From NCBI GenBank assembly GCA_018223105.1, contig JAAEYY010000001.1, forward strand, positions 214,544-278,543: 64,000 nucleotides of DNA, in the 5' to 3' direction. The notes under the pieces were generated by a model. That model was not told the DNA's origin. It did not search any database and saw only the letters and a list, made by a program, of their open reading frames with translations. This DNA is from a bacterium (GTDB taxonomy: Bacteria; Bacteroidota; Bacteroidia; NS11-12g; UBA9320). The position numbers and the translations under genes were made by a program. Shown piece by piece: positions 6,516 through 50,165 of the stretch. Position 1 is the stretch's first letter, and each line of letters begins with the position of its first letter.

Positions 6516-6528
6516 ATTTCAAATATCA

Positions 6529-6866: not shown

Positions 6867-7070
6867 CTTGGGTTGCGGGGCGATTTCGAAGCGCTAGATT
6901 TCTTCAAAAAAGTAGTAAGACTTGACCTTTTGCTTCTTTTGTGTCAAGACAAAAGAAGGGAAGGTTTTGTTACTTTTTAAAAAGTAAGACTAGGGCTGAA
7001 TAGCTTGATTTTCTTCGAACAAATGAAAGAGGGAAGGCAGCATAATATTGTGAAAGACTTCCAGCCAGTG

Positions 7071-7193
7071 GGCTGGCAGGCCTGCCAGCCGAAGCTTTAG
7101 CGTAGGGTGGTTTGCTTCCTTTTTGAGCCCAAAAGGAAGTGTTTTTATTATCCCCTTGTCTGCCGACAGGCAGGCCTAACGGGTGACTAATCG
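7071..7193. repeat. GC-rich palindromic repeat elements (gccagtgggctggcaggcctgccagc; cttgtctgccgacaggcaggcctaacgggtgacta)
   Basis: The second element repeats the motif at 6531 and shares cgggtgacta with 11545. Confidence 0.6.
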
Positions 7194-7493
7194 CTTTATC
7201 AAAAAAGTAAGAAGGAAGAAGCTTGGATTTTAGGGCACCTCAGTTTAAGGGCTAGTTGGCCTGTTGAGAGACTGCAAGCTTTGGGATTTAAAAAGGATAG
7301 TAAGAAAAACATTTATTATTAAAAATTTTTGCTTGAAAGCATAGTTAGAACTGATTTTATTAAACATTTATAAAAAGAAACCAGGTCTATCGTAATGTTT
7401 CATGATTAGTCTAAGAAGCGGTAAGTTTGCATTTGAGTTAAATTGCATTGAATTGCCAGTTGGAAACTGGTAAATTCCAAATAGATTATTCAA

Positions 7494-9942: not shown

Positions 9943-10087
9943 TAGAGCATTTCTAATTCAGTGAACCTTCACCAAAGGTGATAAAAAAACAACACTTATA
10001 AACACCTTTAGTTTAGTCTAAAGTAGATCGTGTTGTAAAACACAAATGATCATCACAACGTTTACAAGCGAACCTGCCACTAGGACT

Positions 10088-10323
10088 GCTCGGAGCACAC
10101 CTATAGTAAACCTCGGAGCATGTTTGGAGTACACCTAAAATACACCTCTGAGCCTGCTCGGAGTATACCTACAGTGCCTCGGAGTTTATTCGGAGCACAT
10201 TTATCATGTACCTCTGAGCCTACTCGGAGTACACCTACAGTGTACCTCAGAGTTTATTCAGAGTACACTTAAAGTGTACCTCCTGAGTTTATTCAGAGTA
10301 CACCTACAGTGTACCTCTGAGCT
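10088..10323. repeat. tandem minisatellite: about 34-bp hairpin unit x about 7-8 (68-bp super-unit)
   Basis: Units ctc[t/a]gag(cctgctc|tttattc)ggagtacacctacagtgtac repeat head to tail. Each holds the palindrome gtacac-ctaca-gtgtac. The last unit supplies the final four codons (RGTL) and stop of hppD. Confidence 0.8.
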
Positions 10324-20300: not shown

Positions 20301-20682
20301 GTAATAAGCTGTTTTTAGTGTTGAGGGCTGATTCCTGAAGTTCAAGAGTATTAAGAAGTTTATCTTTTACTTCGGGGAAATATTGACCAATAAGGAGAGA
20401 TGCTTTTCTATAACTTAGATTTCTGCGGATATTGATGAGCCCACCAATCGGCCGAATCACATACCAAAATAAAATAGCAGCTGATCCTAGAATGTATAAG
20501 CTAAACAGAAATGTACGAGTGCCGGTGTTGAAACGTCCGAAAAACTCTAGAACGCTTACCGCAAAGAAGGCAATAAGGCTAATAGATACAGCTAGGATAG
20601 CTCCTTTGAGTAACTGGTTCTTGTAGTACTTCTTAATGAAGAACTCGAGTTTCTGAATTAATATGTTTTGCTCCTGAGACAA
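17365..20682 (-). CDS. large membrane-anchored protein with extended E/K/Q-rich coiled-coil region (function unknown)
   Basis: 1105 aa. N-terminal TM helices, a beta-rich middle section, then about 450 aa of low-complexity charged heptad-like sequence. Confidence 0.6.
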   Translation of the reverse strand: MSQEQNILIQKLEFFIKKYYKNQLLKGAILAVSISLIAFFAVSVLEFFGRFNTGTRTFLFSLYILGSAAILFWYVIRPIGGLINIRRNLSYRKASLLIGQYFPEVKDKLLNTLELQESALNTKNSLLLASIEQKTAQLSPIPFSNAIKFNSNLRYVKLALIPAVILLLIMVISPGFKSSSERIVKFNQHFEPEAPFSFVVDASIFNTVQNRDLKIPLKLEGSEIPKDAYIHIGELRYKMSRKNSGQFEYLLRNVQKGQEIWFESGGFNSDRYTLDVALKPSLLSYNAKLDFPAYLDMEDQTVSNIGEITVPEGTGITWNFETRHVDQIEILPEGKEITNAGDRASFSKIFKKSSLLQVKTKNRSVKDGDSLFYNINVIPDAYPKIDVDQKSDSLSAKILYFLGEVNDDHGFTKLSFSYKFVNAQGDKKGKSGTVNIALDKKIQKQTFYHYWDLKQINVQAEDEIEYYFTVWDNDGVNGAKATRSQISTYKAPSLKEIKEQTEKSNENIKSSLSSSQAKASEIEKDLQEVKKMLTEKKNLDWNDKKKIEDLLKKHEQLQKEIEETVNENMEKNMKEEEFKDVNEEMLEKQQKIEELFEKVMDEETKELMEKIRKLMEENRMQELQQEMENLEFSEEEMSKDLDRMLELFKELELEKKLNETVEKLNELSKKQQELSEKTKNGEKKDEELIKEQEKLNEEFEELKKDLEDIEEKNKALEQPKSLDMPKEDSDQIQEKMNQSKESMEKGKNSDASEKQQDAAEEMKKMAESLEKQIEEAYEEQYQEDYNALRQILENLVQLSFDQEQIISEFKQNRSYNARYIELRQLQRRIVDESKMVEDSLLALSKRNPEIEHFVNEEIARVNQNLDRTLAHLGERQTSEAMVNQQYVMTGYNNLALMLSQSLEAMQEQMKSMKEKQQQKSGQCKKPGSGQGEKPKKPNAQTIKKMQQDLAKQLQEMMDGKKKGQQPGSKEFAEMAAKQAEIRKRLQELERDLQKEGKGGSLGDLQKTQDMMDDIEKDLYYKKLDPAVMEKLQDIEIRLSEHENAEKKQDKEEKRAAEEAKEKEREIPPSIKKYLEEKMKEQEMLRSVSPELQPYYKQKVKNYFGS

Positions 20683-21367: not shown

Positions 21368-22765
21368 TTGGGTCGAAGAAATAAGCAGCGCAATTTCGAG
21401 CGTGTAGAGTTACTTGCCGGTGGAGGCGAGGGACATGCCATTGCTAAGGTGAATGGCAAAGTAATATTCGTTAAATACGGAGCACCGGGCGATGTGGTGG
21501 ATATCAAAGTAGTAGGTCGAAAGAAGAGATTTGACCTCGCCAATATCACCGAGATTCACGAAGCTTCTAAAGATCGAACTGAACCTTTTTGTCAGCATTA
21601 CGGCACTTGTGGAGGTTGTAAATGGCAGCATCTAGACTATGCGGCTCAACTTAGGTTAAAAGATCAGTGGACCCGAGACTGTATGCAGCGCATCGGTAAA
21701 ATTGAACCTCAAGAATATATTGACATTCTCCCGGCTGCTTCAACTGAGTTTTATCGGAACAAAATGGAATACACCTTTTCAAATAAGAGGTGGTTGTACG
21801 AAGATGAGAACCTGGAAGACTTGGATCATACCAATGCACTTGGGTTTCATGCACCGGGTAGATTTGATAAAGTACTGGCCATTGAAAAATGCTGGTTACA
21901 ACATGACCATGGCAATAAAATCCGAAACTTTGTACGTGATTACGCTCTTGAACATGGACTAAGTTTTTACGATCTAAAAGAACATACCGGTCTCCTCAGG
22001 AATCTGATGCTCAGAAATACAAGGAATGGAGACTGGATGATCAACCTTATCGTAGCAGAAGATGATCCCTATTCATTTATGCCTTTACTGGAAGCAATTA
22101 AAAATGAATTTGATCCATATACGCTGAATTATTCCATTAATACCAAACTCAACGACTCTATCTACGATCTAGATTTTATAAATTACTCAGGATCGGGATT
22201 CTTGTGGGAGACCTTGTTTGATTTAGAGTTTGAAATTCATCCAAAATCATTCTTTCAAACCAATACGGTTCAAGCAGAAAAATTGTATCAAGTTGGTCTT
22301 GATTTCGCGGAGCTAAAAGGTACAGAAGTAGTATACGATTTGTATTGCGGAACCGGAACAATTAGTTTGGTGGCAGCCAGAAAAGCAAAGAAAGTTATAG
22401 GTGTTGAGATTATTCAGGAAGCAATTGATTCTGCGAATTCAAATGCAAAGCACAACAAGATTGACAATTCTGTTTTTGTCTGTGGCGATATGAAAGATGT
22501 GTTTCACGATGAGTTTTATAATCAGCATGGAGCACCGGATATAATAATAACAGATCCGCCACGATCCGGTATGCACCCAAAAGTGGTTCAGCAACTTCTC
22601 AGTATTGCCTGTCCGAAAATTGTGTATATCAGCTGTAATCCTGCAACTCAGGCAAGAGATCTGGAAGTGCTTTCGGAGAAATACGATGTTTTAAAATCTC
22701 AGGCGGTTGATATGTTCCCGCATACGCATCATGTAGAGAATGTGACTTTACTGAAGCTGAGGTAA
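21368..22765 (+). CDS. rlmD: 23S rRNA (uracil-C5)-methyltransferase RlmD (RumA family)
   Basis: 465 aa. TRAM domain, Fe-S Cys cluster (CQHYGTCGGCKWQH) and a SAM-MTase motif (DLYCGTGTI). Confidence 0.8.
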   Translation: MGRRNKQRNFERVELLAGGGEGHAIAKVNGKVIFVKYGAPGDVVDIKVVGRKKRFDLANITEIHEASKDRTEPFCQHYGTCGGCKWQHLDYAAQLRLKDQWTRDCMQRIGKIEPQEYIDILPAASTEFYRNKMEYTFSNKRWLYEDENLEDLDHTNALGFHAPGRFDKVLAIEKCWLQHDHGNKIRNFVRDYALEHGLSFYDLKEHTGLLRNLMLRNTRNGDWMINLIVAEDDPYSFMPLLEAIKNEFDPYTLNYSINTKLNDSIYDLDFINYSGSGFLWETLFDLEFEIHPKSFFQTNTVQAEKLYQVGLDFAELKGTEVVYDLYCGTGTISLVAARKAKKVIGVEIIQEAIDSANSNAKHNKIDNSVFVCGDMKDVFHDEFYNQHGAPDIIITDPPRSGMHPKVVQQLLSIACPKIVYISCNPATQARDLEVLSEKYDVLKSQAVDMFPHTHHVENVTLLKLR

Positions 22766-22966
22766 AACATCGGACATTCATTGATAGTTGCATATTTTGC
22801 AACTCCCGTCACTTCGGTTCTGTTTTTATGCAAGAAATCCGAATTCTTCTAATGATTTATGTTATTCTAAGGAAAATCAATTTAATTTTCTGTTCTGAAA
22901 CGAGAAAGAGCGTTAGAAATTTGCTATCTCTAATCTTGATTTGTGATCAAATAAAAGCAGAAGAAT

Positions 22967-24049
22967 ATGAATCTATTTGTCGGACCCGCACTTTTACTTG
23001 GACTCGTGTTAATCGAGCTCTTTGTGTTAGGTGTGGTCCGTAAAGAGAAGCTGCCCTGGAATGAGATTATTATGAATCTCAACTCCGGCCATATTCTACT
23101 TTGGGTTTTCCGAGGACTTGAATTATTGGGCTTCTATTACATTGAAACTTATTTTAGTTTTGGGATTGTAGCTCAATGGCCTCTTGCTTTACAAGTTGCT
23201 TTCACGTTCGTGGCCTGGGATTTTTTATTTTACTGGTTGCACCGCCTTCATCATACTTGGAAGTTTTTATGGGCAATTCACGAAGTGCATCACCAAGGGG
23301 AACATTTTAACCTTTCATTGGGAATTAGAAATAGTTGGTATTCATCACTCACATCTCTGCCTTTCTTTATACCTCTTGCTCTATTAGGAGTGCCAACAGA
23401 AGTGTTCTTGCTAGTTTCTTCTATCCATTACTTTGTGCAGTTTTACAACCACAATAAGTTGGTTGTAAACTCAGGAATTCTGGAATATTTTATGGTTACC
23501 CCGGCTTTGCATAAAGTGCATCACGGCAAGAATGAAGTGTATCGAGATAAAAATTGCGGTGGTACATTAAATATATGGGATCGCCTATTTGGTACCTATC
23601 AGAGAGAGTTGAAAAATGAACCTATTCAATTTGGTATCGATGAACCGATTCGATCAGAAAATCCATTTTGGGTGAATACTGTTCCGTTTTTGAAAATTGC
23701 AGGAAGGAATGTTAAGTCGCAAAATCGACCACCTTTTGAGCTTTCAAAGATTTGGGTCTCGGTTGGAGGTTTACTTCTTTTTTTACCTCTCCTGCTTTAT
23801 ATTAAACAAGAGTCTAGTTTAGATCTAATAGCTAAAGTACTCTTCTTTTCTTCCGTTTTCATTTCTACTCTAGCTCTTGGAGGTTTATACGAAGGAAAAT
23901 ATTGGGGACTTTTTGGCTGGATAGTTATAAATGTAGTATTAAACTCAGTGTTACTTTACTCCTTCTTATCGCCTCAAATCTGGAACTATCTTGCCTTGGG
24001 TCTTTTATTCTTACACGCAGTAATTACTCCCTTTTTAATAAAAAAATGA
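22967..24049 (+). CDS. fatty acid hydroxylase superfamily membrane protein (sterol desaturase / C4-methyl oxidase-like)
   Basis: 360 aa. Three His boxes (HRLHH, HEVHHQGEH, HKVHHG) plus an extra C-terminal multi-TM extension. Confidence 0.7.
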   Translation: MNLFVGPALLLGLVLIELFVLGVVRKEKLPWNEIIMNLNSGHILLWVFRGLELLGFYYIETYFSFGIVAQWPLALQVAFTFVAWDFLFYWLHRLHHTWKFLWAIHEVHHQGEHFNLSLGIRNSWYSSLTSLPFFIPLALLGVPTEVFLLVSSIHYFVQFYNHNKLVVNSGILEYFMVTPALHKVHHGKNEVYRDKNCGGTLNIWDRLFGTYQRELKNEPIQFGIDEPIRSENPFWVNTVPFLKIAGRNVKSQNRPPFELSKIWVSVGGLLLFLPLLLYIKQESSLDLIAKVLFFSSVFISTLALGGLYEGKYWGLFGWIVINVVLNSVLLYSFLSPQIWNYLALGLLFLHAVITPFLIKK

Positions 24050-25053
24050 TGGAAGCTAAGAGTATATTAATAACAGGTGCTACTGGCTTTTTGGGGAGCA
24101 GAACCCTGGAGTATTTGGCTGCAGAATATCCAGATACTCAGTTTATCGCTTCAGGAAGAACACTGAGGGAGGAGGCTAAAGTTTCATCTAAAAATGTAGA
24201 ATATATCTTGGGTGATCTAGTGGATATGGAATATGTCAAAACCTTATTCCGCTCAAAGCCGAATGTAGTGATTCATTGTGCTGCTCTTTCTTCTCCCTGG
24301 GGTAAAGCAGAAGAGTTCTATGAAGCGAATGTGCTGACTCAAAAAAATCTCTTAAACCTGGCATATGAAGCGGGATGTGAGCGATATATTTATATATCAA
24401 CGCCAAGCATATATTTCAATTTCAAACCTCGTTATGATATTAAGGAATCTGAACCCTTACCTGCACATTTTGTAAATCACTATGCCAGCACCAAGCGCGA
24501 GGCAGAATTGATGCTGGAATCGCAGAGCATACCATATGTTAGTTTGCGCCCAAGAGCGCTTATAGGTAGGGGAGATACAGTTATTTTGCCTCGATTGATT
24601 CGAGCCGTAGAAGAAGGCAGATTGAGAATTATTGGGGATGGTGAAAATGTTGTGGATCTCACTCCTGTAAGCAATGTAGTTCAAGCCATAGAATGCGCTC
24701 TTAAGGCTCCTAGAGAAGCCCTGAATCAGCATTATAACATTAGCAATGGAGCACCGGTAAAGCTTTGGGACTCAATCTTCAAAACGCTAGAAGCTTTGGA
24801 TCTTAAAGTGCCAACTCAAAAGCTTCCGGTAAGTATAGCCAGGACTATTGCAAGAGGAATGGAATTAATAGCTCAGCTATCCGGAAGTTCAGAGCCTGTG
24901 TTAACTCAGTACTCTGTTGGCACATTGGCTTATGATTTTACAATGAATATAGATAAGGCCAAAACACTGCTGTCTTATCATCCTTTACAAACTACGGATG
25001 AAGCAATAGAAGAATTTGTTCACTGGTATAAAGAGAAAAATAATGAAGTTTAG
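24046..25053 (+). CDS. NAD-dependent epimerase/dehydratase, 3beta-hydroxysteroid dehydrogenase-like SDR
   Basis: Start taken at MMEAKSILITGATGFLG (ATGA overlap with the upstream stop). YxxxK catalytic motif present (YASTK). Confidence 0.7.
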   Translation: MMEAKSILITGATGFLGSRTLEYLAAEYPDTQFIASGRTLREEAKVSSKNVEYILGDLVDMEYVKTLFRSKPNVVIHCAALSSPWGKAEEFYEANVLTQKNLLNLAYEAGCERYIYISTPSIYFNFKPRYDIKESEPLPAHFVNHYASTKREAELMLESQSIPYVSLRPRALIGRGDTVILPRLIRAVEEGRLRIIGDGENVVDLTPVSNVVQAIECALKAPREALNQHYNISNGAPVKLWDSIFKTLEALDLKVPTQKLPVSIARTIARGMELIAQLSGSSEPVLTQYSVGTLAYDFTMNIDKAKTLLSYHPLQTTDEAIEEFVHWYKEKNNEV

Positions 25054-25867
25054 ATTGATAAAAACAGGCTATTGTGATGCTTTTGAACATCATGCTATTC
25101 GAGGGGGGAAACGGAAGAAGATTCAATTTCCTGCAACAGTCGGGCTTCTAGAGCATCCTGAAAAAGGCTATGTTTTATTTGATACCGGATACAGCCAACG
25201 ATTTTTTGAGGAAACCCGGCGCTTTCCAAACAAAGTTTATGCTCTTATAACGAAGGTTTATCTCACCGAAGGCGAAGACTTAAAATCTCAACTTGAGCAA
25301 AGTGGGATAGACCCGAACTCAATTAAGCACGTTGTGATTTCGCATTTTCATGGAGACCATGTTTGTGGTTTGAAGGATTTTCCAAATGCCCAATTTTACT
25401 GTTCCCGAATGGCAGTTGAAGAGCTAAACAATGTATCTGATTTTCTGGCAGTGAGCAAAGGAATTCTTAAAGGCTTATTTCCAGCTGACTTTGAAGATAG
25501 ATTAGAATACATTGAAGATCTAAATCCTATAAATGAACCTCTTTTTGAGGCGACCTACGACCTTTTTGGCGATGGCAGTATTGAGTTGATAAAGCTTCAC
25601 GGACACGGTTGTGGTCAATATGGAATGAGATTTATGGCAGATGGTCAGCGGTATTTTTTAGCTGCTGATGGATACTGGCTGCGAAAGTCTTTGCAGGAGA
25701 ATATTTTACCTCATCCTATTGTGAAACTGTTTTTCTCTTCTTGGAAGGACTACAAACAGAATTTGAAGAAACTTCATGAGTACTATAAAGCCAATCCCGA
25801 TGTGATTATGCTATCTACTCATTGCAACGAAACTGTGAATGAGCAATTGATGAGACAAGAAGGATGA
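25043..25867 (+). CDS. MBL-fold metallo-hydrolase
   Basis: HxHxDH motif (ISHFHGDHVCG). The internal Met start overlaps the upstream gene by 11 nt. Confidence 0.7.
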   Translation: MKFRLIKTGYCDAFEHHAIRGGKRKKIQFPATVGLLEHPEKGYVLFDTGYSQRFFEETRRFPNKVYALITKVYLTEGEDLKSQLEQSGIDPNSIKHVVISHFHGDHVCGLKDFPNAQFYCSRMAVEELNNVSDFLAVSKGILKGLFPADFEDRLEYIEDLNPINEPLFEATYDLFGDGSIELIKLHGHGCGQYGMRFMADGQRYFLAADGYWLRKSLQENILPHPIVKLFFSSWKDYKQNLKKLHEYYKANPDVIMLSTHCNETVNEQLMRQEG

Positions 25868-27165
25868 AGTTTAAACTCCTCATATTGAAGTACTTTATAG
25901 TATTTAGGCTTCGCCGATTTTTCTTGCGAAATAAGACATTGCTTAGCTGGTTCCAAGGAATAAAGTTTAGATCGCAACAGAAGAAGTGGAAGAACTCGGA
26001 GTTTTATGCCGATTTAAACCATCGCGCAGCAAAACTGAACGAATATCCAGTCCTGTATAAGGCTGTGTTTATGAAGAACTTCGAAGCAATTAACACGGCT
26101 GGAATTGCTCTGGAGGAAGCATTTAAAGTGGCTTTGGATGCTGAAAATGGAATGCGAATTAATTCTGAGATTAATGGAATTACGGTAGGACTTTCAAGTG
26201 GCACGAGTGGAAATAGAGGAGTTTTTCTTGCTTCAGAGAAAGAGCGAGCTCAATGGGTAGGTGCTGTTTTGGATCGGGTAATTGGGCTAAAGCTCAAAAA
26301 ACGCAAAGTGGCTTTTTTCTTAAGGGCAAATTCAGAATTATATGAGTCGGTAAACTCCTCTTTGCTTCAGTTTGATTTTTATAATATTCATGATGAATTA
26401 GAGGTGCAAGTTGAGAGGCTCAATGCATTGAATCCCGATATTTTGGTAGCTCAGCCTTCAGTTTTACTACGTATCGCCGAAGGCGTAAATATGGGGAAGT
26501 GCAAGATTAAGCCGAGTAAAATAATTTCTGTAGCAGAAGTGCTTGAGCCAATAGATGAGCGGTTTTTAGAGCGGGTCTTTGATCTCGATATCGATCAGGT
26601 CTATCAATGTACTGAGGGGTTTCTGGCTTTTACTTGTAATAAAGGGAATTTGCACCTAAACGAGTATTCACTGATTATAGAAAAACGATACATCGATCTT
26701 GAGAAGAAAAGATTTCACCCCATAATTACTGATTTGGAAAGGGTGAGTCAGCCTATTATTCGATATGAGCTCAATGATATTCTGATTGAAGGCGAATGTA
26801 CTTGCGGATCAGTTTTTACCTGTCTGGAGCAAATTGAAGGAAGGGCAGACGACACCTTGTGTTTTGAAAATCAGGAAGGAAGAAAAGTTTATATCTATCC
26901 GGATATTTTCAGAAGACGGATCATCAAAAACTGTGAATGGGTTCATGAATATCAATTAGTTCAAACAGGAGAAAGGGAGCTTGAATATGCTATTAAGGCA
27001 GAGAATGGGTCTAGCCTTATTTCGGAGCAATTTAAAAAGGAAATCGCTCAGTTACTGGAAGAACGCGGCCTTGTAGATATTGAATTGGAAGAAGTAAAGT
27101 ATTTGGATCCCAAACCCGGAGATAAACTAAGACGAATTAGAAATACGAATTATGAAAAAGCTTAA
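25864..27165 (+). CDS. adenylate-forming enzyme, coenzyme F390 synthetase / PaaK-like (DarA-like?)
   Basis: 433 aa. ANL-type P-loop-like motif GLSSGTSGNRG, with the length and architecture of the PaaK/F390/CapK clade. 4-nt overlap upstream and 14-nt overlap with the downstream KAS III. Confidence 0.6.
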   Translation: MKFKLLILKYFIVFRLRRFFLRNKTLLSWFQGIKFRSQQKKWKNSEFYADLNHRAAKLNEYPVLYKAVFMKNFEAINTAGIALEEAFKVALDAENGMRINSEINGITVGLSSGTSGNRGVFLASEKERAQWVGAVLDRVIGLKLKKRKVAFFLRANSELYESVNSSLLQFDFYNIHDELEVQVERLNALNPDILVAQPSVLLRIAEGVNMGKCKIKPSKIISVAEVLEPIDERFLERVFDLDIDQVYQCTEGFLAFTCNKGNLHLNEYSLIIEKRYIDLEKKRFHPIITDLERVSQPIIRYELNDILIEGECTCGSVFTCLEQIEGRADDTLCFENQEGRKVYIYPDIFRRRIIKNCEWVHEYQLVQTGERELEYAIKAENGSSLISEQFKKEIAQLLEERGLVDIELEEVKYLDPKPGDKLRRIRNTNYEKA

Positions 27166-28138
27166 GATATCAGGAACCGGGACCTGTTTCCCGGAATATC
27201 TGTTAAGCTCGAGGGAGTTGGAACAGAAGTATGCTTTGCCGGAAGGCTGGTGTATGCGCTATTCCGGTGTGGAAAGCAGGTACAGAGTGATCCATGAAAG
27301 TGGGGGAGAGCTCGGCGCAAAAGCAGTTGAAAGGGCTATTGAAGATGCCGGTTTAAGTTTGTCTGATATTGATTTACTTATAAGTGCATCTGCAACATTC
27401 GATTATCCGCTGCCAAACCAGGCTTGTGTAATTAAATCTAAATTAAAAGATGGAAGTAAATATGACTTTCCGGCCATTTCGGTTGATTCAACTTGTACCG
27501 GATTCCTCACGGCTTTAGATCTCGCTGCAGGAATGCTAGACGGAGTCAAATATGGAAACATAGTTATCATAAATTCTGAGGATTCATCAAAAGGTCTTAA
27601 TCCGGATAATTGGGAGACTTTAAGTCTTTTTGGTGATGCAGCGGTTGCTAGCCTTGTTTCATATACAGAAGAGGATTTGGGAATTATAAAAAGTCATGCG
27701 ATTACAGTTGCAGAAGGAATGGAACTTACTATCATTCGCGGCGGGGGGAATGTGAATCACCCTAAAGACCATCCTTATGACCCTGAGTTATATAGCTTTT
27801 CAATGTCGGGGAAGGCACTTTTGAGAATGGCTAAAAAGTACATTGAACCTTTTATGGAAGACTTGTTTAGGGAGAGTGGATACAGCATGGGTGCTATGGA
27901 ACATGTTTTACCTCATCAGGCCAGTTTAAGTGGTTTAAATAGTTTTAAATCAATGTACAAGCTAAGCGAAGAACAGGTTCACAGTAATTTGAAAGAATTT
28001 GGTAATTGCATTAGCGCATCCATTCCCTTATTGCTGCATCAAGGTTTAAAATCAGGAAGAATAAAAAGAGGAGAAACCTGCTTGTTGGCAGGTACAAGTG
28101 CAGGGTTTTCAATTAGTGGTCTAATTTTAAAAGTATAA
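27152..28138 (+). CDS. 3-oxoacyl-ACP synthase III family condensing enzyme (FabH/DarB/OleA-like)
   Basis: 328 aa. Thiolase fold with active-site Cys (VDSTCTGF), His (LPHQAS) and Asn (GNCISASIP). Confidence 0.75.
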   Translation: MKKLKISGTGTCFPEYLLSSRELEQKYALPEGWCMRYSGVESRYRVIHESGGELGAKAVERAIEDAGLSLSDIDLLISASATFDYPLPNQACVIKSKLKDGSKYDFPAISVDSTCTGFLTALDLAAGMLDGVKYGNIVIINSEDSSKGLNPDNWETLSLFGDAAVASLVSYTEEDLGIIKSHAITVAEGMELTIIRGGGNVNHPKDHPYDPELYSFSMSGKALLRMAKKYIEPFMEDLFRESGYSMGAMEHVLPHQASLSGLNSFKSMYKLSEEQVHSNLKEFGNCISASIPLLLHQGLKSGRIKRGETCLLAGTSAGFSISGLILKV

Positions 28139-29283
28139 TGTCTGTGTTTTGGCCATTGGATTTTATTACTGGAGCAATGAAGAGGGGAACTCGTCTAAGT
28201 TTTAAGCGATTTGTAGTTGTTTTTATTGTTTTCCCGGGTATTCTAATTTGGCAAGGATGTAATCGCTTATTTCTGTTTCTTGATTTAATTTTCTTTCCCG
28301 GATTTAAGAAAATTGAAGTTGGTTCTGCGCTTTTTATTACGGGTTTGCCGAGAAGTGGTACCACTTATTTGTTCCGTCTATTGGCGCTAGATACATCAAA
28401 CTTTACAAGTTTTAAACTATGGGAAATACTATTTACTCCTTCTATTTGTCAGAAGTTGATGTGGCTACCTATTCAAAAACTTAATCGTGTTTTGGGTGGC
28501 CCTCTAGTTTATTTGGTCCGAGCTTTTGATCGTCTGGTATTAGGAGATTTTCGGAAAATTCACGAGATGGGTTTGCTGCAGGTGGAAGAGGACGATTTGC
28601 TTTTACTTCCCTTTGGACAGTCTAGCTATTATTTCTTTTTATTTCAGGAGAATAGAAACATGCGCAAGCTGCTCAACTTCGATTTCGACTTGGAACTGAA
28701 TGAGAGAAAAAAGATAATGAGCAACTACAAAGGTCTTGTTCAAAGACATTTGTATATGAGCGCGAATCGGGACAAGAAGTTTTTATCAAAGAACCCTTCT
28801 TTCGTTTCAAGAATTACCAGTTTAAAAGCCACTTTTCCGGAGGCAGAGGTGCTCTATTTATTTCGTGATCCTAAAAAGGTGATTCCTTCTTTTTTAAGTC
28901 TAACGGATCGTTTGTTTAAAATCACCGGTTCAATCAAACTATTGAAATCCGGAGATCCATGGTATATGAATCAATTGCTGCGTTGGTATGAAGACAGTTT
29001 AGACCTCGCGCTGAAAAACGGGAGTATTATTCTTTCTTTTCCCGATGTAGTTGGTGATACATCGTCTGTGATCAGAAACCTCTATAATGAGCTGAAATTA
29101 GAAATGAGGCATTATCATGTACAGCAGACTCTAATAAATTCTTACTCAAACTATAAGAGCAGTCATAATTATGAAGCCTATGAAGCTTTGCTTGGTCAGC
29201 AAGAACTTAGCGCTGTTAAAGCTATAAAGCTAAAAAGAAAAGGTATAGATTCTACACTCTTTACAAATCAAATTGGAGTATAG
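28138..29283 (+). CDS. PAPS-dependent sulfotransferase
   Basis: 5'-PSB motif LPRSGTTYL and 3'-PB motif FRDPKKVIPSFLS. TAATG overlap with the KAS III stop. Confidence 0.7.
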   Translation: MSVFWPLDFITGAMKRGTRLSFKRFVVVFIVFPGILIWQGCNRLFLFLDLIFFPGFKKIEVGSALFITGLPRSGTTYLFRLLALDTSNFTSFKLWEILFTPSICQKLMWLPIQKLNRVLGGPLVYLVRAFDRLVLGDFRKIHEMGLLQVEEDDLLLLPFGQSSYYFFLFQENRNMRKLLNFDFDLELNERKKIMSNYKGLVQRHLYMSANRDKKFLSKNPSFVSRITSLKATFPEAEVLYLFRDPKKVIPSFLSLTDRLFKITGSIKLLKSGDPWYMNQLLRWYEDSLDLALKNGSIILSFPDVVGDTSSVIRNLYNELKLEMRHYHVQQTLINSYSNYKSSHNYEAYEALLGQQELSAVKAIKLKRKGIDSTLFTNQIGV

Positions 29284-29314
29284 CAATGTTACCTTTGTAA
29301 CAGATTTACCTCAG

Positions 29315-29950
29315 ATGTACGGAACATTCAAATTTTACTTTCTTTTTTTAGTGGTAATGTCAGCAGCATCTTGTGTGCCTATCAATCATATTACCAGTCC
29401 GGAAGTTTTGGATAAATCAGAGCAAAGCATTGCTTTTGGAGCTGTGATTGAACCAAAACTTGTTAGTTACGACACAGCGCTTTATGGTGTTCAGCCTCAA
29501 TTTACTTACCGTACCGGATTAGGGCACGGCGCTGATTTCGGCATTGGAATTTATGGACTTGCGTACCCGATACTTAATTTTGATTACAAGCATTATTTAG
29601 TTGATCGCCCACGAGTTGACCTTACCGGGGACCTTCATTTCTTTGCAGGATATAAGCGACCTACGGGATTAAAGTACAACCTCATTTTTGGAAATGAACG
29701 GATTTTTACCAGCGGTGGAGTATATTATTTTTTCACACATCAGTTGGAAACCTCCAAAAATGTGAACTGGTTGTGGGGTTTGGGTGCAGCTTTAGGTGAG
29801 AATAAGAACTTTTTGGTTCAAGGCGTTATTTCAAATGAGATTAGCTTATCAGATAAAGCTTCGGTTATAGACAATATGCCTTATTACCCACAACCCTATC
29901 TCTCATTCGGTTTTTCGTATCAGTTTAACAGCAGAAAAAGAAGAAATTAA
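29315..29950 (+). CDS. hypothetical lipoprotein / outer-membrane protein
   Basis: The internal Met gives a signal peptide with lipobox (VVMSAASC). The ORF overlaps the end of the sulfotransferase gene. Confidence 0.45.
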   Translation: MYGTFKFYFLFLVVMSAASCVPINHITSPEVLDKSEQSIAFGAVIEPKLVSYDTALYGVQPQFTYRTGLGHGADFGIGIYGLAYPILNFDYKHYLVDRPRVDLTGDLHFFAGYKRPTGLKYNLIFGNERIFTSGGVYYFFTHQLETSKNVNWLWGLGAALGENKNFLVQGVISNEISLSDKASVIDNMPYYPQPYLSFGFSYQFNSRKRRN

Positions 29951-30035: not shown

Positions 30036-30566
30036 ATGGAAGCACAAACAGCAAGCACAGCAAAATGGACAATAGACCCTTCACACAGTGAAATGGTCTT
30101 CAAAGTAAAACACATGATGATCTCTACTGTTACAGGGAGATTTGAAGATTTCAGCGGTGAGTTGGAAGCGGAAGGTGAAGATTTTTCTCACGGAAGAGCC
30201 AAGATCAACATTGACGTAAATTCTATTACAACAAACAACAAAGACCGCGACGCTCATTTGAAGTCGGATGACTTTTTCAACGCTGAATCTTTTCCTCAAA
30301 TCACCTTTGTTTCTCGTTCATTCGACGGAAATAAATTGGTGGGAGATCTTACCATTAGAGATGTGACAAAAGAAGTTAGTCTTGATGTAGATTATCAAGG
30401 TACTGCAGTTGACCCTTACGGACAAACCAAAGCAGGTTTTGAAGTAAGAGGAGAAATCAACCGAAAAGATTTTAACCTTAAGTGGAATGCAGTAACTGAA
30501 GCCGGAAACATTGTGGTTTCAGACACTGTTAAATTAGATCTTCACGTCCAATTTGTGAAGCAATAA
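30036..30566 (+). CDS. YceI-family polyisoprenoid/lipid-binding protein
   Basis: 176 aa with KWTIDPSHSEMVFKVKHMMISTVTGRFEDFSG, typical of YceI. Confidence 0.8.
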   Translation: MEAQTASTAKWTIDPSHSEMVFKVKHMMISTVTGRFEDFSGELEAEGEDFSHGRAKINIDVNSITTNNKDRDAHLKSDDFFNAESFPQITFVSRSFDGNKLVGDLTIRDVTKEVSLDVDYQGTAVDPYGQTKAGFEVRGEINRKDFNLKWNAVTEAGNIVVSDTVKLDLHVQFVKQ

Positions 30567-30585: not shown

Positions 30586-30616
30586 AAGCGGGCCCATTGG
30601 GTCCGCTTTTTTTTTT
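30586..30616 (+). terminator. rho-independent terminator after the YceI gene
   Basis: gcgggccca-ttg-ggtccgc stem followed by a T10 run. Confidence 0.6.
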
Positions 30617-31286: not shown

Positions 31287-32714
31287 ATGAATTATATAGT
31301 AGTAGTATTATCCATTGCGGTCCTCTTTATTTTTATTCTCATTATATCGGTGCTTCGCCGATATAAAAGATGTCCATCGGATCGTGTTCTCGTAGTATAT
31401 GGTAAAGTAGGAAAAGGAGTAGATAAATTAAGCAGATCTGCTAAGTGTATTCACGGTGGTGCTGCATTTATCTGGCCTGTAATTCAGGATTATGCTTTCT
31501 TGGATTTAACACCGCATTCCATTGAAGTGAATCTAACCAATGCACTTTCAAGGCAAAATATTCGGGTAGATGTGCCGTCTAGGTTTACAATTGGTATTTC
31601 TACCGAACCTGGTGTGATGGAAAATGCTGCAGAGCGTCTATTAGGTCAGAGCAAAGAGCAAATTCACAATTTGGCATTGGATATCATCTTCGGTCAGCTT
31701 CGTTTAGTAGTTGCCACTATGGATATTGAGGAGATCAACAATAACAGAGATAAATTCTTGAGCAATGTAAGTTCGAATGTGGAAGCAGAGCTTAAGAAAG
31801 TGGGCTTGAAACTCATCAACGTAAACTTAACTGATATTAGAGATGAGTCGGGCTACATTGAAGCTCTAGGTAAGGAAGCTGCAGCAAAAGCAATTAACGA
31901 TGCAAAGAAATCTGTGGCAGAGAAAAACAGAGACGGTGCCATTGGAGAGGCAATCGCCTTGCAAGATCAAAGAGTTAAAGTTTCTGAAGCAGATGCAACT
32001 GCAGTAGAAGGGGAGAACTTAGCAAAAATTACGATTGCAAACTCAGATGCATTGCGTAGACAAAGAGAGGCAGAGGCTGAAAAGATGGCAATTGCCTCTG
32101 AGAAGGTTCAGGCGGCAAGAGCATTGGAAGAAGCATATGTTGCGGAGAAAGAAGCTGAAGAGTCTAGAGCGAATCGAGAGAAAGCAACAAAGTATGCCGA
32201 TATCGTAATACCGGCACAAATAGATAAAGAGAAAGTAGAAATTAATGCAGAAGCCGAAGCAGAGCAGAAAAGAAGAGTAGCTAAAGGTGAGGCCGATGCT
32301 ATCTTCTTGAAATTAGATGCAGAAGCGCGAGGTGTTATGGAAGTATTAACAAAACAGGCAAAAGGTTTCAAAGACCTTGTAGCAGCTTCCGGTAATGATC
32401 CTAAAAATGCTGCAATGCTCTTGATTGCAGATAAATTGAATGAGCTAGTTGAACTTCAAGCAAAAGCGATCAGCAATATCAAGATCGATAAAGTTACGGT
32501 TTGGGATGGCGGCAATAATGCTGATGGCAAAAACGCCACTTCTAATTTCTTAAGTGGAATGTATAAATCTGTTCCACCTTTAGAAGATATCTTCAACATG
32601 GCCGGACTTCAACTACCTGAATACCTCAGAGGCAAATCTTTGGAAGAAGCTCGAGATATTATGGAAGATAAAACTTCAGATGGCTCTGAAAACACAAATG
32701 AAGAAAAATCCTAG
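31287..32714 (+). CDS. flotillin / SPFH (band-7) domain protein
   Basis: 475 aa. N-terminal TM, SPFH domain, long Ala/Glu-rich coiled coil. Confidence 0.8.
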   Translation: MNYIVVVLSIAVLFIFILIISVLRRYKRCPSDRVLVVYGKVGKGVDKLSRSAKCIHGGAAFIWPVIQDYAFLDLTPHSIEVNLTNALSRQNIRVDVPSRFTIGISTEPGVMENAAERLLGQSKEQIHNLALDIIFGQLRLVVATMDIEEINNNRDKFLSNVSSNVEAELKKVGLKLINVNLTDIRDESGYIEALGKEAAAKAINDAKKSVAEKNRDGAIGEAIALQDQRVKVSEADATAVEGENLAKITIANSDALRRQREAEAEKMAIASEKVQAARALEEAYVAEKEAEESRANREKATKYADIVIPAQIDKEKVEINAEAEAEQKRRVAKGEADAIFLKLDAEARGVMEVLTKQAKGFKDLVAASGNDPKNAAMLLIADKLNELVELQAKAISNIKIDKVTVWDGGNNADGKNATSNFLSGMYKSVPPLEDIFNMAGLQLPEYLRGKSLEEARDIMEDKTSDGSENTNEEKS

Positions 32715-50160: not shown

Positions 50161-50165
50161 TTTAT

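What the first reader, a model, noticed from the sequence alone, without database searches (positions are those of the whole stretch)
22967..29950. Seven-gene overlapping operon for a candidate sulfated, hydroxylated, head-to-head-condensed lipid (Dar/Ole-like with a sulfotransferase)
Seven genes are translationally coupled, with 1-14 nt stop/start overlaps. Their products are:
- a fatty-acid hydroxylase / sterol-desaturase superfamily membrane protein (three His boxes)
- a 3beta-HSD-like SDR
- an MBL-fold hydrolase
- an F390-synthetase/PaaK-like adenylating enzyme (SSGTSG motif)
- a FabH-like KAS III with a Cys/His/Asn triad
- a sulfotransferase with clear PAPS 5'-PSB (PRSGTT) and 3'-PB (RDPKK..S) motifs
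- a lipoprotein.
The adenylating enzyme overlapping the KAS III mirrors the darA-darB arrangement of dialkylresorcinol / cyclohexanedione systems. KAS III plus an adenylating enzyme plus a 3beta-HSD-like reductase also parallels OleA/OleC/OleD of olefin and beta-lactone biosynthesis. No ACP gene, OleB or polyene machinery is present, and I know of no characterised Dar/Ole cluster that carries a sulfotransferase and a membrane hydroxylase. The hydroxylase + 3beta-HSD pair also recalls the ERG25/ERG26 sterol C4-demethylation pair. A YceI lipid-binding protein and NfeD/flotillin lie immediately downstream. Together this suggests a previously undescribed sulfated lipid or alkylresorcinol-type metabolite pathway.
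Basis: partly seen in the sequence, partly recalled or inferred. Interest (0 to 1): 0.78.

Follow-up and report, generated by a model that had tools for sequence, protein, structure and literature searches.

The report
Uncharacterised sulfated-lipid operon, conserved cassette
This is a real, tightly coupled operon built around a four-gene lipid-building cassette of unknown product that occurs in many bacteria, including E. coli Nissle 1917 and urinary-tract strains, here with an added membrane hydroxylase and a sulfotransferase that probably make a sulfated lipid.

Summary
Seven co-directional genes at 22967-29950 overlap or abut, and every domain call was reproduced.

The Dar/Ole interpretation is only partly right. 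The reductase is OleD-like. The KAS III is not OleA-like, because it lacks the catalytic Glu. It is not DarB-like, and it is not a housekeeping FabH. It belongs with MxnB/CorB, the ketosynthases that fuse two chains head to head.

The conserved unit is reductase, lactonase-like MBL hydrolase, TIGR02304 adenylating enzyme and KAS III:
- It is collinear in 65 of 77 related loci, out of at least 588 species genomes that hold a TIGR02304 relative.
- It also occurs, with the hydroxylase, in 674 of 5426 complete E. coli genomes, in Bacillus and in Ketogulonicigenium. In Paraburkholderia the KAS III is missing.

Tailoring genes vary between lineages. The sulfotransferase occurs in 19 of 44 fully flanked loci and the hydroxylase in 12 of 44. 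Others carry PAP2, DUF3419, ATP-grasp or Rieske genes.

Gene 7, YceI and flotillin are not conserved with the cassette.

No paper on the cassette was found.

Best reading: a two-chain or beta-keto lipid scaffold is reduced, released, hydroxylated and O-sulfated. I rate it a new variant of a known kind, interest about 0.6.

The parts
22766..22966 (+). Upstream intergenic region, presumed promoter and 5' UTR of the operon
   Evidence: 201 nt gap after the unrelated RNA methyltransferase gene at 21368-22765. No Rfam family here. The sigma-70 scan does not apply to Bacteroidota promoters. The promoter is inferred, not shown.
22967..24049 (+). Membrane di-iron hydroxylase of the fatty-acid hydroxylase / sterol desaturase superfamily, with a C-terminal multi-TM extension (FAH, 360 aa)
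   Evidence: PF04116 at 96 bits. Three His boxes at 92, 105 and 182. Best NCBIfam hit is OlsE, 94 bits, far below its cut-off. Orthologues at 44-59% identity sit in cassettes of other Bacteroidota, E. coli Nissle and Paraburkholderia.
24046..25053 (+). Extended SDR / 3beta-HSD-type reductase, OleD-like (335 aa)
   Evidence: Epimerase 122 bits, 3Beta_HSD 88 bits. NCBIfam 2-alkyl-3-oxoalkanoate reductase (OleD) at 162 and 157 bits (cut-off 580), next best HpnA at 91 bits. GATGFLG and YASTK motifs. Core gene in 70 of 77 loci.
25043..25867 (+). MBL-fold di-metal hydrolase of the AHL-lactonase type (274 aa)
   Evidence: Lactamase_B. AttM-type lactonase at E 2.5e-22. H101/H103/D105/H106, H188, D209 and H260 are invariant in 33 family members. 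Best solved relatives are N-acyl-homoserine lactonases and 4-pyridoxolactonase; PqsE is not among them.
25864..27165 (+). TIGR02304 'F390 synthetase-related' adenylate-forming enzyme, PaaK-like (433 aa)
   Evidence: TIGR02304 at 401 bits, above the 252 cut-off. Weak hits to PaaK, DVU_1553 and FlxY ligases. PDB: phenylacetate-CoA ligases only, E 1e-7. SSGTSG, YQCTEG and GDKLRR motifs. The family has 455 clusters (50% identity) at E<=1e-30.
27152..28138 (+). KAS III-fold ketosynthase of the MxnB/CorB type (328 aa)
   Evidence: C115/H255/N285 triad. 35% identity to MxnB and CorB against 27% to E. coli FabH. Family profile scores: MxnB 317 bits, CorB 311, best FabH 238, E. coli FabH 185, OleA 104 partial. 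Below the FabH cut-offs. Thr at MxnB T322, Glu at FabH G152, Leu at the OleA-Glu position, and no FabH R36/R151/R249.
28138..29283 (+). PAPS-type sulfotransferase (Sulfotransfer_3, Stf-like) with a hydrophobic N-terminus (381 aa)
   Evidence: PF13469 at 69 bits. PRSGTT71 and RDPKK243..S. Family profile: M. tuberculosis Stf1 79 bits, CurM ST 39.5 bits, OLS ST 31 bits. JGI names some homologues as Stf3-type menaquinone sulfotransferase. The closest homologue (37%) sits in the same cassette.
29273..29950 (+). Lineage-specific predicted lipoprotein or envelope protein (gene 7). Co-directional, but not a conserved member
   Evidence: No Pfam or NCBIfam hit. Lipobox-like SAAS-C at residue 20 counted from ATG 29315. 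No homologue in the 80 related loci even at E<=10.
30036..30566 (+). YceI-like lipid-binding protein, possibly co-transcribed, not conserved with the cassette
   Evidence: PF04264 at 176 bits. 85 nt after gene 7 with no terminator between them. Absent from all related loci.
30586..30608 (+). Intrinsic-terminator-like hairpin, the likely 3' end of the transcription unit
   Evidence: 10 bp stem with 7 G-C pairs followed by T9. It is the only strong + strand terminator-like site between 22600 and 32900.

Best explanation
The region is a dedicated secondary-lipid operon. Its core is a conserved, uncharacterised cassette of four enzymes: an OleD-like reductase, a lactonase-type MBL hydrolase, a TIGR02304 adenylating enzyme and an MxnB/CorB-type KAS III. 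This lineage has added a membrane di-iron hydroxylase and a Stf-like PAPS sulfotransferase.

Proposed route; every step below is inferred:
1. The PaaK-like enzyme activates a fatty acid, or a related carboxylic acid, with ATP.
2. The ketosynthase loads that acyl group on Cys115. It joins it by Claisen condensation to an already activated methylene partner. That partner is most likely a 3-oxoacyl thioester, as for MxnB/CorB, and less likely malonyl-ACP. The product is a beta-dicarbonyl or alpha-branched beta-keto (or pyrone/lactone) scaffold carrying two alkyl chains.
3. The OleD-like SDR reduces the beta-keto group to a hydroxyl.
4. The MBL enzyme releases or opens the product by hydrolysing a thioester or lactone.
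5. The di-iron enzyme hydroxylates or desaturates the alkyl part in the membrane.
6. The sulfotransferase puts sulfate on a free hydroxyl, giving an anionic amphiphile for the cell envelope.

Shown directly: the genes, their coupling, the intact catalytic motifs, the family placements, and the conservation and modularity of the cassette.
For: Operon and motifs.

Cassette conservation:
- At least 588 species genomes hold a TIGR02304 relative.
- The core is collinear in 65 of 77 loci, with overlapping junctions.
- It crosses phyla: E. coli Nissle/UPEC in 674 of 5426 genomes, Paraburkholderia, Bacillus mycoides and Ketogulonicigenium.

KAS placement:
- Profile scores of 317 and 311 bits for MxnB and CorB, against 185-238 for FabH and 104 for OleA.
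- Shared T322 and Glu residues, and loss of the FabH Arg residues.
- MxnB and CorB nest inside the cassette KAS radiation in a rough NJ tree.
- MxnB/CorB chemistry is taken from PMC5724707 and PMC5506619.

No Glu base, so the nucleophile must be pre-activated.

Other enzymes: the SDR is closest to OleD. The MBL has the full lactonase metal site.

Sulfate as a head group:
- The SULT family is closest to mycobacterial Stf enzymes, which make sulfated lipids.
- An APS-kinase gene family occurs in three SULT-bearing loci, L023, L034 and L040.
- An unrelated Sulfotransfer_3 gene lies beside the cassette in Ketogulonicigenium.
- Other lineages carry other polar-group enzymes in the same slot: PAP2, DUF3419 and ATP-grasp.
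- A PAP2-TIGR02304 fusion protein exists.
Against: - No product is known for any member, and no step has been tested.
- There is no ACP, CoA-transferase or acyl donor gene in the operon, so the thioester carriers are unknown.
- Paraburkholderia keeps SDR-MBL-F390-FAH without an adjacent KAS. The ketosynthase may therefore not be essential to the core chemistry.
- The TIGR02304 enzyme could act late, on the product's carboxylate, or could even O-adenylylate a hydroxyl as true F390 synthetase does. It need not activate the starter acid.
- The MBL is lactonase-like, not PqsE-like, so a thioesterase role is only an analogy.
- PAPS-supply genes are not in the window.
- The NJ tree has a single outgroup.
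Confidence: 0.45

Rival explanations
1. C2-extension route, with PqsA/PqsD/PqsE-like logic plus a reductase. The ligase makes an acyl-CoA. The KAS extends it by decarboxylation of malonyl-ACP or malonyl-CoA. The MBL acts as a beta-ketoacyl thioesterase. The SDR yields a free long-chain 3-hydroxy fatty acid, which is then hydroxylated and 3-O-sulfated.
For: The Cys-His-Asn triad is that of decarboxylating KAS III enzymes, and the KAS lies in the broad FabH clade. The ligase / KAS III / MBL trio mirrors PqsA/PqsD/PqsE (general knowledge). W32 of FabH is kept in 29 of 35 family members. OleD-type reductases act on beta-keto acids.
Against: The KAS is nearer to MxnB/CorB than to any FabH. It lacks FabH R36, R151 and R249, which bind CoA and ACP, and it has the MxnB T322 equivalent. 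The MBL shows no similarity to PqsE. Cells already make 3-hydroxyacyl chains, so the need for a dedicated cassette is unclear.
Confidence: 0.2
2. Dissociated olefin-synthase logic, as in CurM/OLS. The beta-hydroxyl made by the KAS and reductase is sulfated only to create a leaving group. A hydrolase then triggers decarboxylative elimination to a terminal alkene, so the final product carries no sulfate.
For: There is a part-for-part parallel with FAAL-KS-KR-ST-TE (PMC11837247). The SULT profile detects CurM ST (E 3e-9) and OLS ST. In related loci an alpha/beta-hydrolase gene accompanies SULT in 14 of the 19 fully flanked loci that carry SULT.
Against: The window has no alpha/beta hydrolase. That hydrolase family has a Cys nucleophile (GNCIGG), unlike the CurM TE. 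SULT scores twice as high on Stf1 as on CurM ST. Other lineages replace SULT with head-group enzymes (PAP2, DUF3419), which argues that the hydroxyl is a decoration site.
Confidence: 0.12
3. Ole-type pathway with substitute parts. The KAS acts as OleA, the SDR as OleD, the adenylating enzyme as an OleC-like beta-lactone synthetase and the MBL as an OleB substitute. The product is a long-chain olefin or beta-lactone.
For: The SDR's best curated match is OleD. An ATP-dependent enzyme and a lactone-type hydrolase are present.
Against: The catalytic Glu of OleA is replaced by Leu or Ile. OleA structures match only residues 7-148. The adenylating enzyme is PaaK-type, with no AMP-binding (ANL) Pfam hit. 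There is no OleB-type hydrolase. A lactonase would reopen a beta-lactone rather than decarboxylate it.
Confidence: 0.07
4. Sterol or hopanoid tailoring. The hydroxylase plus the 3beta-HSD-type enzyme act as an ERG25/ERG26-like or SdmA/SdmB-like C4-demethylation pair, followed by sulfation of the polycyclic alcohol.
For: The FAH and 3beta-HSD families are those of ERG25 and ERG26. The Rieske oxygenases in sister cassettes hit only SdmA, weakly at 52 bits. The SDR's best solved match is NSDHL. Stf-like sulfotransferases act on isoprenoid lipids.
Against: SdmB scores 41 bits against 162 for OleD. The SDR is always coupled to the MBL, the adenylating enzyme and usually the KAS, which have no role in demethylation. 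FAH is present in only 12 of 44 loci. There are no cyclase or squalene genes in the window. E. coli carries the cassette but makes no sterols.
Confidence: 0.04
5. Dialkylresorcinol / cyclohexanedione (DarAB) system.
For: A stand-alone KAS III is next to a second enzyme. There are weak DarB and StlD hits (E 7e-12 and 2e-14).
Against: DarB scores 45 bits against a cut-off of 550. No protein hits a DarA family. There is no ACP. The KAS groups with MxnB/CorB.
Confidence: 0.02

Closest known systems
MxnB / CorB (myxopyronin and corallopyronin chain-fusing ketosynthases; PDB 4V2P, 4YUC)
   Same: Stand-alone KAS III fold with a Cys-His-Asn triad. 35% identity over the full length with almost no gaps. 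Hydrophobic residue instead of the OleA-type Glu. Thr at the tunnel junction (MxnB T322). Loss of the FabH Arg residues.
   Different: MxnB and CorB work inside large trans-AT PKS/NRPS clusters on carrier-protein-bound polyketide chains. Here there is no PKS and no carrier protein, and the partners are an adenylating enzyme, a reductase and an MBL hydrolase. Pyrone formation is unproven.
OleABCD olefin / beta-lactone pathway
   Same: An OleD-like NAD(P)H reductase of beta-keto acids. A thiolase-fold condensing enzyme plus an ATP-dependent enzyme in one operon. A lipid-type product is expected.
   Different: The KAS lacks the OleA Glu and matches OleA only in part. The adenylating enzyme is PaaK-type, not ANL/OleC. 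There is no OleB. An MBL hydrolase, a sulfotransferase and a hydroxylase are extra.
PqsA/PqsD/PqsE steps of alkylquinolone synthesis
   Same: The same three enzyme types act together: a carboxylate ligase, a FabH-like condensing enzyme and an MBL-fold hydrolase that releases a beta-keto acid.
   Different: There is no sequence-level relation to PqsE. PqsD scores only 135 bits on the KAS profile. The substrate here is presumably aliphatic.
Mycobacterial Stf sulfotransferases with Cyp128 (sulfomenaquinone S881) and Stf0 (sulfolipid-1)
   Same: The same sulfotransferase family; the best solved match is Stf1. The logic of a hydroxylase paired with a sulfotransferase acting on a membrane lipid is also shared.
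   Different: The hydroxylase here is a di-iron FA_hydroxylase, not a P450. The lipid acceptor is made by the adjacent cassette. Identity to Stf1 is low.
CurM / OLS sulfotransferase-thioesterase module
   Same: An activating enzyme, KS, ketoreductase and sulfotransferase occur in one pathway. The ST family is distantly related.
   Different: There is no thioesterase in the window, and the ST is closer to Stf enzymes. The enzymes are dissociated and there is no ACP.
E. coli B2 island narI-[KAS III, SDR, MBL, TIGR02304, PAP2, sterol desaturase family, acyl-CoA desaturase]-tyrT (for example Nissle 1917 CIW80_RS24800-24830)
   Same: Orthologous KAS (33%), SDR (34%), MBL (31%), adenylating enzyme (41%) and hydroxylase (44%), also translationally coupled.
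   Different: The gene order puts the KAS first. PAP2 and a desaturase replace the sulfotransferase. It is also uncharacterised.

Membership tests
TIGR02304 F390 synthetase-related protein | Score above the curated NCBIfam cut-off over the full length | tested here: met
   401 bits against a cut-off of 252, residues 5-426.
MxnB/CorB-type chain-fusing KAS III | Cys-His-Asn triad in a KAS III fold, with MxnB/CorB as the best-scoring characterised relatives | tested here: met
   C115/H255/N285 are invariant. MxnB 317 bits and CorB 311 bits, against at most 238 for any FabH. 35% identity.
MxnB/CorB-type chain-fusing KAS III | Hydrophobic residue (Val94) where OleA/PpyS/NocG have the catalytic Glu, and Thr at the tunnel junction (T322) | tested here: met
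   Leu87 in the window; L, I or V in 35 of 35 family members. Thr in 33 of 35 and in the E. coli, Ketogulonicigenium and Bacillus copies.
MxnB/CorB-type chain-fusing KAS III | Condenses two long carrier-bound beta-ketoacyl chains into an alpha-pyrone | not testable with these tools
   Needs enzyme assays. No carrier protein gene is present in the operon.
Housekeeping FabH | Score above the FabH family cut-offs, and the CoA/ACP-binding Arg residues (E. coli R36, R151, R249) | tested here: not met
   TIGR00747 169 bits against 292, PRK09352 192 against 249. Y, W and S at the three Arg positions. 27% identity to E. coli FabH.
OleABCD | OleA-type thiolase with the catalytic Glu for alpha-deprotonation of an unactivated acyl chain | tested here: not met
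   Leu or Ile at that position. OleA structures align only to profile positions 7-148, at 104 bits.
OleABCD | OleD 2-alkyl-3-oxoalkanoate reductase | tested here: inconclusive
   It is the best family hit, at 162 and 157 bits, but the equivalog cut-off is 580. The protein is OleD-like, not orthologous.
OleABCD | OleC (ANL-type beta-lactone synthetase) and OleB (alpha/beta-hydrolase decarboxylase) | tested here: not met
   The adenylating enzyme has no AMP-binding Pfam hit, only PaaK-type hits. There is no alpha/beta hydrolase in 22967-29950.
DarABC dialkylresorcinol | DarB ketosynthase, DarA and ACP DarC | tested here: not met
   DarB 45 bits against 550. No other Dar family hit for any of the seven proteins. 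No ACP gene.
PAPS-dependent sulfotransferase (Sulfotransfer_3) | 5'-PSB loop (PxxGTT), 3'-PB motif (RDP...S) and a Pfam score above cut-off | tested here: met
   PRSGTT71 and RDPKKVIPSFLS243. PF13469 at 69 bits against 27. R72, K218 and R243 are invariant in 33 homologues.
FA_hydroxylase superfamily di-iron enzyme | His boxes HX3-4H, HX2-3HH and HX2-3HH in a membrane protein | tested here: met
   HRLHH92, HEVHH105 and HKVHH182. PF04116 at 96 bits against 31.
AHL-lactonase-type MBL hydrolase | HxHxDH plus downstream His, Asp and His metal ligands | tested here: met
   H101, H103, D105, H106, H188, D209 and H260 are invariant. The best solved matches are lactonases. The substrate was not tested.
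CurM/OLS ST-TE olefin module | ST closely related to CurM ST, followed by a thioesterase | tested here: not met
   CurM ST 39.5 bits against Stf1 79 bits. No TE or alpha/beta hydrolase in the window.
Sterol C4-demethylation pair (ERG25/ERG26 or SdmA/SdmB) | SdmB/ERG26-type decarboxylating 3beta-HSD paired obligately with the oxygenase | tested here: not met
   SdmB 41 bits against 600. The hydroxylase is absent from 32 of 44 cassettes.

The most novel reading that the evidence does not exclude
The cassette makes a previously unrecognised class of two-tailed, hydroxyl-bearing bacterial membrane lipids. Its polar head group is exchanged between lineages:
- sulfate here, in many Bacteroidota, and independently in Ketogulonicigenium
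- a phospho-group via PAP2 in E. coli B2 (Nissle, UPEC), Burkholderia and Ralstonia
- a homoserine-type group via DUF3419 in Emticicia
- an amino-acyl group via ATP-grasp in Flavivirga, Bacillus and Paenibacillus

The accessory families match those that tailor eukaryotic sphingolipids: FA_hydroxylase as in SUR2, FA_desaturase as in DES1, PAP2 as in AUR1/SMS, and sulfotransferase. This would be a convergent, ceramide-like lipid system built by a ketosynthase instead of serine palmitoyltransferase.
Probability: 0.22. Interest if true: 0.85.

Novelty: new variant of a known kind. Interest (0 to 1): 0.6.

Why it matters
If the reading is right, a widely distributed gene cassette encodes a lipid or lipid-like metabolite that nobody has identified. 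At least 588 species genomes hold a relative of its adenylating enzyme, and the TIGR02304 family has 455 clusters. It is present in about 12% of complete E. coli genomes, including the probiotic Nissle 1917 and uropathogenic strains.

The window shows the sulfated, hydroxylated version in an uncultured Bacteroidota-like organism. The E. coli version makes the question directly testable by knockout and lipidomics.

It would also widen the known role of MxnB/CorB-type ketosynthases from two myxobacterial antibiotics to a broad family of envelope lipids. It would add a bacterial lipid sulfation system outside mycobacteria.

Tried and rejected
- Ten full-text literature searches found no paper on the cassette. 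Terms included F390 synthetase, TIGR02304, PRK07204/PRK06849, sulfotransferase plus FabH or Bacteroidota, CurM, OleD/PaaK, sterol desaturase plus PAP2 plus E. coli, and C18-3OH plus CFT073 locus tags.
- The C18-3OH metabolite of E. coli Nissle is only a remembered, untested lead.
- An exact-sequence look-up of the window's own protein found no contig on record, so the rest of the genome could not be checked for fabH, PAPS genes or an alpha/beta hydrolase.
- Gene 7, YceI, the ORF called NfeD and flotillin were searched against all related loci and gave nothing. I reject them as cluster members.
- Rfam and tRNA scans found nothing near the operon.
- The sigma-70 promoter scan is uninformative for this phylum.
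- The DarAB, OleA-type, housekeeping FabH, CapK/capsule and sterol-demethylation readings were considered and set aside on family scores, residue tests and gene context.
- No structure prediction was run. It would only have recovered the PaaK, KAS III and MBL folds already evident from sequence.

Full report
**1. Observation**

The window holds seven co-directional ORFs at 22967-29950 on the + strand. With the most plausible starts, the stop/start junctions are as follows:
- 4 nt overlap (ATGA) between hydroxylase and reductase
- 11 nt between reductase and MBL
- 4 nt between MBL and adenylating enzyme
- 14 nt between adenylating enzyme and KAS III
- 1 nt between KAS III and sulfotransferase
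- either an 11 nt overlap (TTG 29273) or a 31 nt gap (ATG 29315) before gene 7

- FA_hydroxylase PF04116, 96 bits
- Epimerase/3Beta_HSD
- Lactamase_B
- TIGR02304 'F390 synthetase-related protein', 401 bits against a cut-off of 252
- ACP_syn_III plus ACP_syn_III_C
- Sulfotransfer_3, 69 bits

All quoted motifs are present: three His boxes, SSGTSG, the Cys/His/Asn triad, PRSGTT and RDPKK..S, HFHGDH, and GATGFLG/YASTK.

Gene 7 has a lipobox-like N-terminus but no family. YceI and a Band_7/flotillin protein follow.

The upstream neighbour is an unrelated RNA methyltransferase, 201 nt away. The only strong terminator-like hairpin lies after yceI at 30586-30608. G+C content matches the rest of the window. 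No riboswitch or other Rfam family is nearby. No ACP, fabH or PAPS-synthesis gene was found among the window ORFs scanned.

**2. The conserved unit is a four-gene cassette, not the seven genes**

The adenylating enzyme has thousands of homologues. Apart from the window's own record ('adenylate synthase [bacterium]', contig 297 kb), the best are about 50-55% identical and come from Crocinitomicaceae, Fluviicola, Balneolaceae, Flavivirga, Emticicia and others.

I analysed the best 80 loci by tblastn and by clustering all their ORFs:
- SDR-MBL-F390-KAS is collinear in 65 of 77 loci that carry the adenylating enzyme. Most exceptions are contig ends.
- Junctions overlap or lie within 20 nt in 57 to 64 of those 65.
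- Around this core the content varies. Among 44 loci with at least 3 kb on both sides:

| Accessory gene | Loci (of 44) |
|---|---|
| Sulfotransferase orthologous to the window's | 19 |
| Cys-nucleophile alpha/beta hydrolase | 14 (13 with the sulfotransferase; in the 17 loci overall it is always with it) |
| Hydroxylase | 12 |
| Rieske oxygenase | 10 |
| DesA-like desaturase | 9 |
| DUF3419 protein | 8 |
| Radical-SAM enzyme | 6 |
| ATP-grasp plus an unknown 377 aa protein | 4 |
| Sulfotransferase and hydroxylase together | 4 |
| No accessory gene | 4 |

An APS-kinase gene family occurs in three sulfotransferase-bearing loci, L023, L034 and L040.

Gene 7, YceI, the 'NfeD' ORF and flotillin have no homologue in any of these loci, even at E<=10 for gene 7. 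I treat them as lineage-specific neighbours. YceI may still be co-transcribed.

**3. The cassette crosses phyla**

The hydroxylase has roughly 50%-identical orthologues in Deinococcus, Paraburkholderia and others.
- In Paraburkholderia phenazinium it sits in desaturase-SDR-MBL-TIGR02304-PAP2-hydroxylase-Metal_hydrol, with no adjacent KAS.
- A tblastn search of plasmid records with the Paraburkholderia enzyme found Ralstonia, Burkholderia, Ketogulonicigenium, Paracoccus, Rhizobium, Bacillus mycoides, Paenibacillus, Fusobacterium and, unexpectedly, E. coli.
- The E. coli copy is chromosomal. It is a seven-gene, translationally coupled island between narI and tyrT/purU: KAS III, SDR, MBL, TIGR02304, PAP2, 'sterol desaturase family', acyl-CoA desaturase.
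- It is present in 674 of 5426 complete E. coli genomes, including Nissle 1917 and UPEC strains.
- Identity to the window proteins is 33% (KAS), 34% (SDR), 31% (MBL), 41% (adenylating enzyme) and 44% (hydroxylase).
- Bacillus mycoides plasmid p237 has KAS-ATP-grasp-SDR-MBL-TIGR02304-hypothetical.
- Ketogulonicigenium vulgare plasmid 1 has KAS-SDR-MBL-TIGR02304 next to a divergently transcribed TetR regulator and a Sulfotransfer_3 gene. That gene is not detectably related to the window's by BLAST.
- The TIGR02304 family comprises 455 clusters at 50% identity with E<=1e-30. One representative is a PAP2-TIGR02304 fusion. This ties the adenylating enzyme to a membrane phospho-lipid enzyme.

**4. 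What each enzyme is**

*KAS III.* Single-sequence and profile searches of solved structures both put MxnB (4V2P) and CorB (4YUC) first:

| Structure | Profile score (bits) |
|---|---|
| MxnB | 317 |
| CorB | 311 |
| Best FabH | 238 |
| E. coli FabH | 185 |
| PqsD | 135 |
| OleA | 104, N-terminal half only |

The window protein is 35% identical to MxnB and CorB over 326 residues with few gaps, and 27% identical to E. coli FabH. It falls below the curated FabH cut-offs and far below DarB, at 45 bits against 550.

Residue mapping shows:
- an invariant triad
- Leu, Ile or Val at the position where OleA, PpyS and NocG carry the Glu that deprotonates an unactivated acyl chain, and where MxnB and CorB have Val94 (PMC4578411, PMC9486936)
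- Thr at the position of MxnB T322, which lines the junction of its two substrate tunnels (PMC5724707); FabH has Phe304 there
- Glu at FabH G152, as in MxnB and CorB
- loss of FabH R36, R151 and R249

In a rough NJ tree, MxnB and CorB nest within the cassette KAS radiation, far from E. coli FabH.

The enzyme is therefore neither a housekeeping FabH nor an OleA or DarB. Its nucleophile must already be activated, meaning a 3-oxoacyl thioester as in MxnB/CorB, or malonyl.

*Reductase.* The best curated match is OleD, the 2-alkyl-3-oxoalkanoate reductase, at 162 and 157 bits. HpnA follows at 91, thioester reductases at 50 and SdmB at 41. The best solved match is NSDHL. This family acts on beta-keto and beta-hydroxy acids.

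*MBL.* The full di-metal site is invariant. The nearest structures are AHL lactonases and 4-pyridoxolactonase, and PqsE is not detected.

*Adenylating enzyme.* It is PaaK-like only at a distance, with intact P-loop, YxxTEG and C-terminal Lys motifs.

*Sulfotransferase.* The profile hits M. tuberculosis Stf1 best (79 bits), then a second mycobacterial-type entry, tyrosylprotein sulfotransferases and CurM ST (39.5 bits). JGI labels several homologues as Stf3, the omega-hydroxy-menaquinone sulfotransferase. The nearest homologue (37%) lies in the same cassette. More distant ones in other phyla lie in unrelated contexts.

*Hydroxylase.* It has three His boxes, OlsE as its only curated relative (94 bits), and a conserved C-terminal multi-TM extension that is also present in the E. 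coli orthologue.

**5. Mechanism**

The following points are directly shown:
- an operon of intact enzymes
- a conserved, coupled core
- modular accessory genes that are mostly membrane di-iron oxygenases or desaturases and enzymes that add polar groups to hydroxyls (sulfotransferase, PAP2, DUF3419, ATP-grasp)

My inference is that the core makes a hydroxyl-bearing lipid scaffold:
1. The adenylating enzyme activates a carboxylic acid.
2. The MxnB/CorB-type KAS fuses it to a 3-oxoacyl, or less likely a malonyl, partner.
3. The OleD-like enzyme reduces the beta-keto group.
4. The lactonase-type MBL releases or opens the product.
5. In this window the di-iron enzyme adds a hydroxyl or a double bond, and the Stf-like enzyme adds sulfate as the head group.

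Several things remain uncertain. The order of steps is not known. The adenylating enzyme could act last, or could even O-adenylylate. The KAS is missing from the Paraburkholderia version. The thioester carriers are not known either.

The main rivals are these:
- plain C2 extension to a 3-hydroxy fatty acid (PqsADE-like logic)
- a dissociated CurM/OLS-type route in which sulfate is only a leaving group; the frequent sulfotransferase plus alpha/beta-hydrolase pairing in relatives suggests it, but the window lacks that hydrolase and the sulfotransferase is Stf-like
- an Ole-type route, contradicted by the missing Glu, the PaaK-type enzyme and the absence of OleB
- sterol C4-demethylation, contradicted by the scores and by the cassette's presence in E. 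coli
- DarAB, contradicted by the scores

**6. Comparison and novelty**

The system works most like the stand-alone KAS III 'two-chain' pathways (Mxn/Cor, Ole, Ppy, Noc) combined with mycobacterial-style lipid sulfation. It is a member of none of them. It passes the sequence-level membership tests for the MxnB/CorB ketosynthase type, for TIGR02304, for Sulfotransfer_3, for FA_hydroxylase and for lactonase-type MBL. It fails those for OleA/OleB/OleC, DarAB, FabH, CurM ST-TE and SdmAB.

Ten literature searches found no description of the cassette. NCBI annotates the key enzyme only as 'F390 synthetase-related'.

I rate it a new variant of a known kind. Its Dar/Ole framing and the links to the lipoprotein, YceI and flotillin do not.

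The most useful new fact is that an orthologous operon sits in E. coli Nissle 1917 and UPEC strains, which makes the product experimentally accessible.

Noticed in passing
L092 (E. coli Nissle 1917 NZ_CP022686.1 4902074-4908955); also L090: A seven-gene island between narI and tyrT/purU: KAS III, SDR, MBL, TIGR02304, PAP2, sterol-desaturase-family protein and acyl-CoA desaturase. It is orthologous to the window cassette and present in 674 of 5426 complete E. coli genomes. I found no functional literature on it.
   Followed up: partly
P0367 (642 aa representative protein): Natural fusion of a PAP2_3 membrane domain (residues 59-191) to a TIGR02304 adenylating enzyme (207-640). It suggests that the two act on the same membrane substrate.
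   Followed up: partly
L004:14385-15245 and 16 other related loci (alignment A5): An alpha/beta hydrolase that always accompanies the cassette sulfotransferase has an invariant Cys in the nucleophile elbow (GNCIGG) instead of Ser. It is absent from the window.
   Followed up: partly
L093 (Ketogulonicigenium vulgare WSH-001 plasmid 1, 216137-221867): The cassette (KAS-SDR-MBL-TIGR02304) lies beside a divergent TetR regulator and a Sulfotransfer_3 gene. That gene shows no BLAST similarity to the window's sulfotransferase, so it may be an independent recruitment of sulfation.
   Followed up: partly
L089 (Paraburkholderia phenazinium CADERL010000015.1): A cassette variant without an adjacent KAS III: desaturase-SDR-MBL-TIGR02304-PAP2-hydroxylase-PF10118 metal hydrolase. 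The ketosynthase may therefore be dispensable or encoded elsewhere.
   Followed up: partly
window 3982-11437: A set of aromatic meta-cleavage-type genes: two FAA-hydrolase-family proteins, acetaldehyde dehydrogenase (DmpF-like), HMGL/DmpG aldolase, an aldehyde dehydrogenase and a two-domain glyoxalase/dioxygenase. A tRNA-Asn lies just upstream at 3609-3683.
   Followed up: no
window 41839-51702 (- strand): A long run of closely packed or overlapping minus-strand ORFs. Most have no Pfam family. It includes a LigB-type dioxygenase subunit (49258-50229), a DUF6962 protein (50166-50855), a metallophosphoesterase (43813-44499) and a T9SS-tailed protein (45849-46865). Possibly another uncharacterised operon.
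   Followed up: no
window 17365-20682 (- strand): A 1105 aa protein with N-terminal membrane segments and a very long Glu/Lys-rich, coiled-coil-like C-terminal half. It was not searched against any family.
   Followed up: no
window 32711-34111 (- strand): A secreted multi-domain protein with CarboxypepD_reg repeats and a Por_Secre_tail (T9SS sorting domain). This indicates a Bacteroidota host.
   Followed up: no
window 2372-2965 (- strand): A MerT-like mercury transport domain fused to a heavy-metal-associated (HMA) domain.
   Followed up: no
L094 and L095 (Pseudomonas megaplasmids pMPPla107 and pBASL58): TIGR02304 genes occur alone, or with only the MBL, among long runs of hypothetical genes on roughly 0.9-1 Mb megaplasmids. 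This is a context quite unlike the lipid cassette.
   Followed up: no
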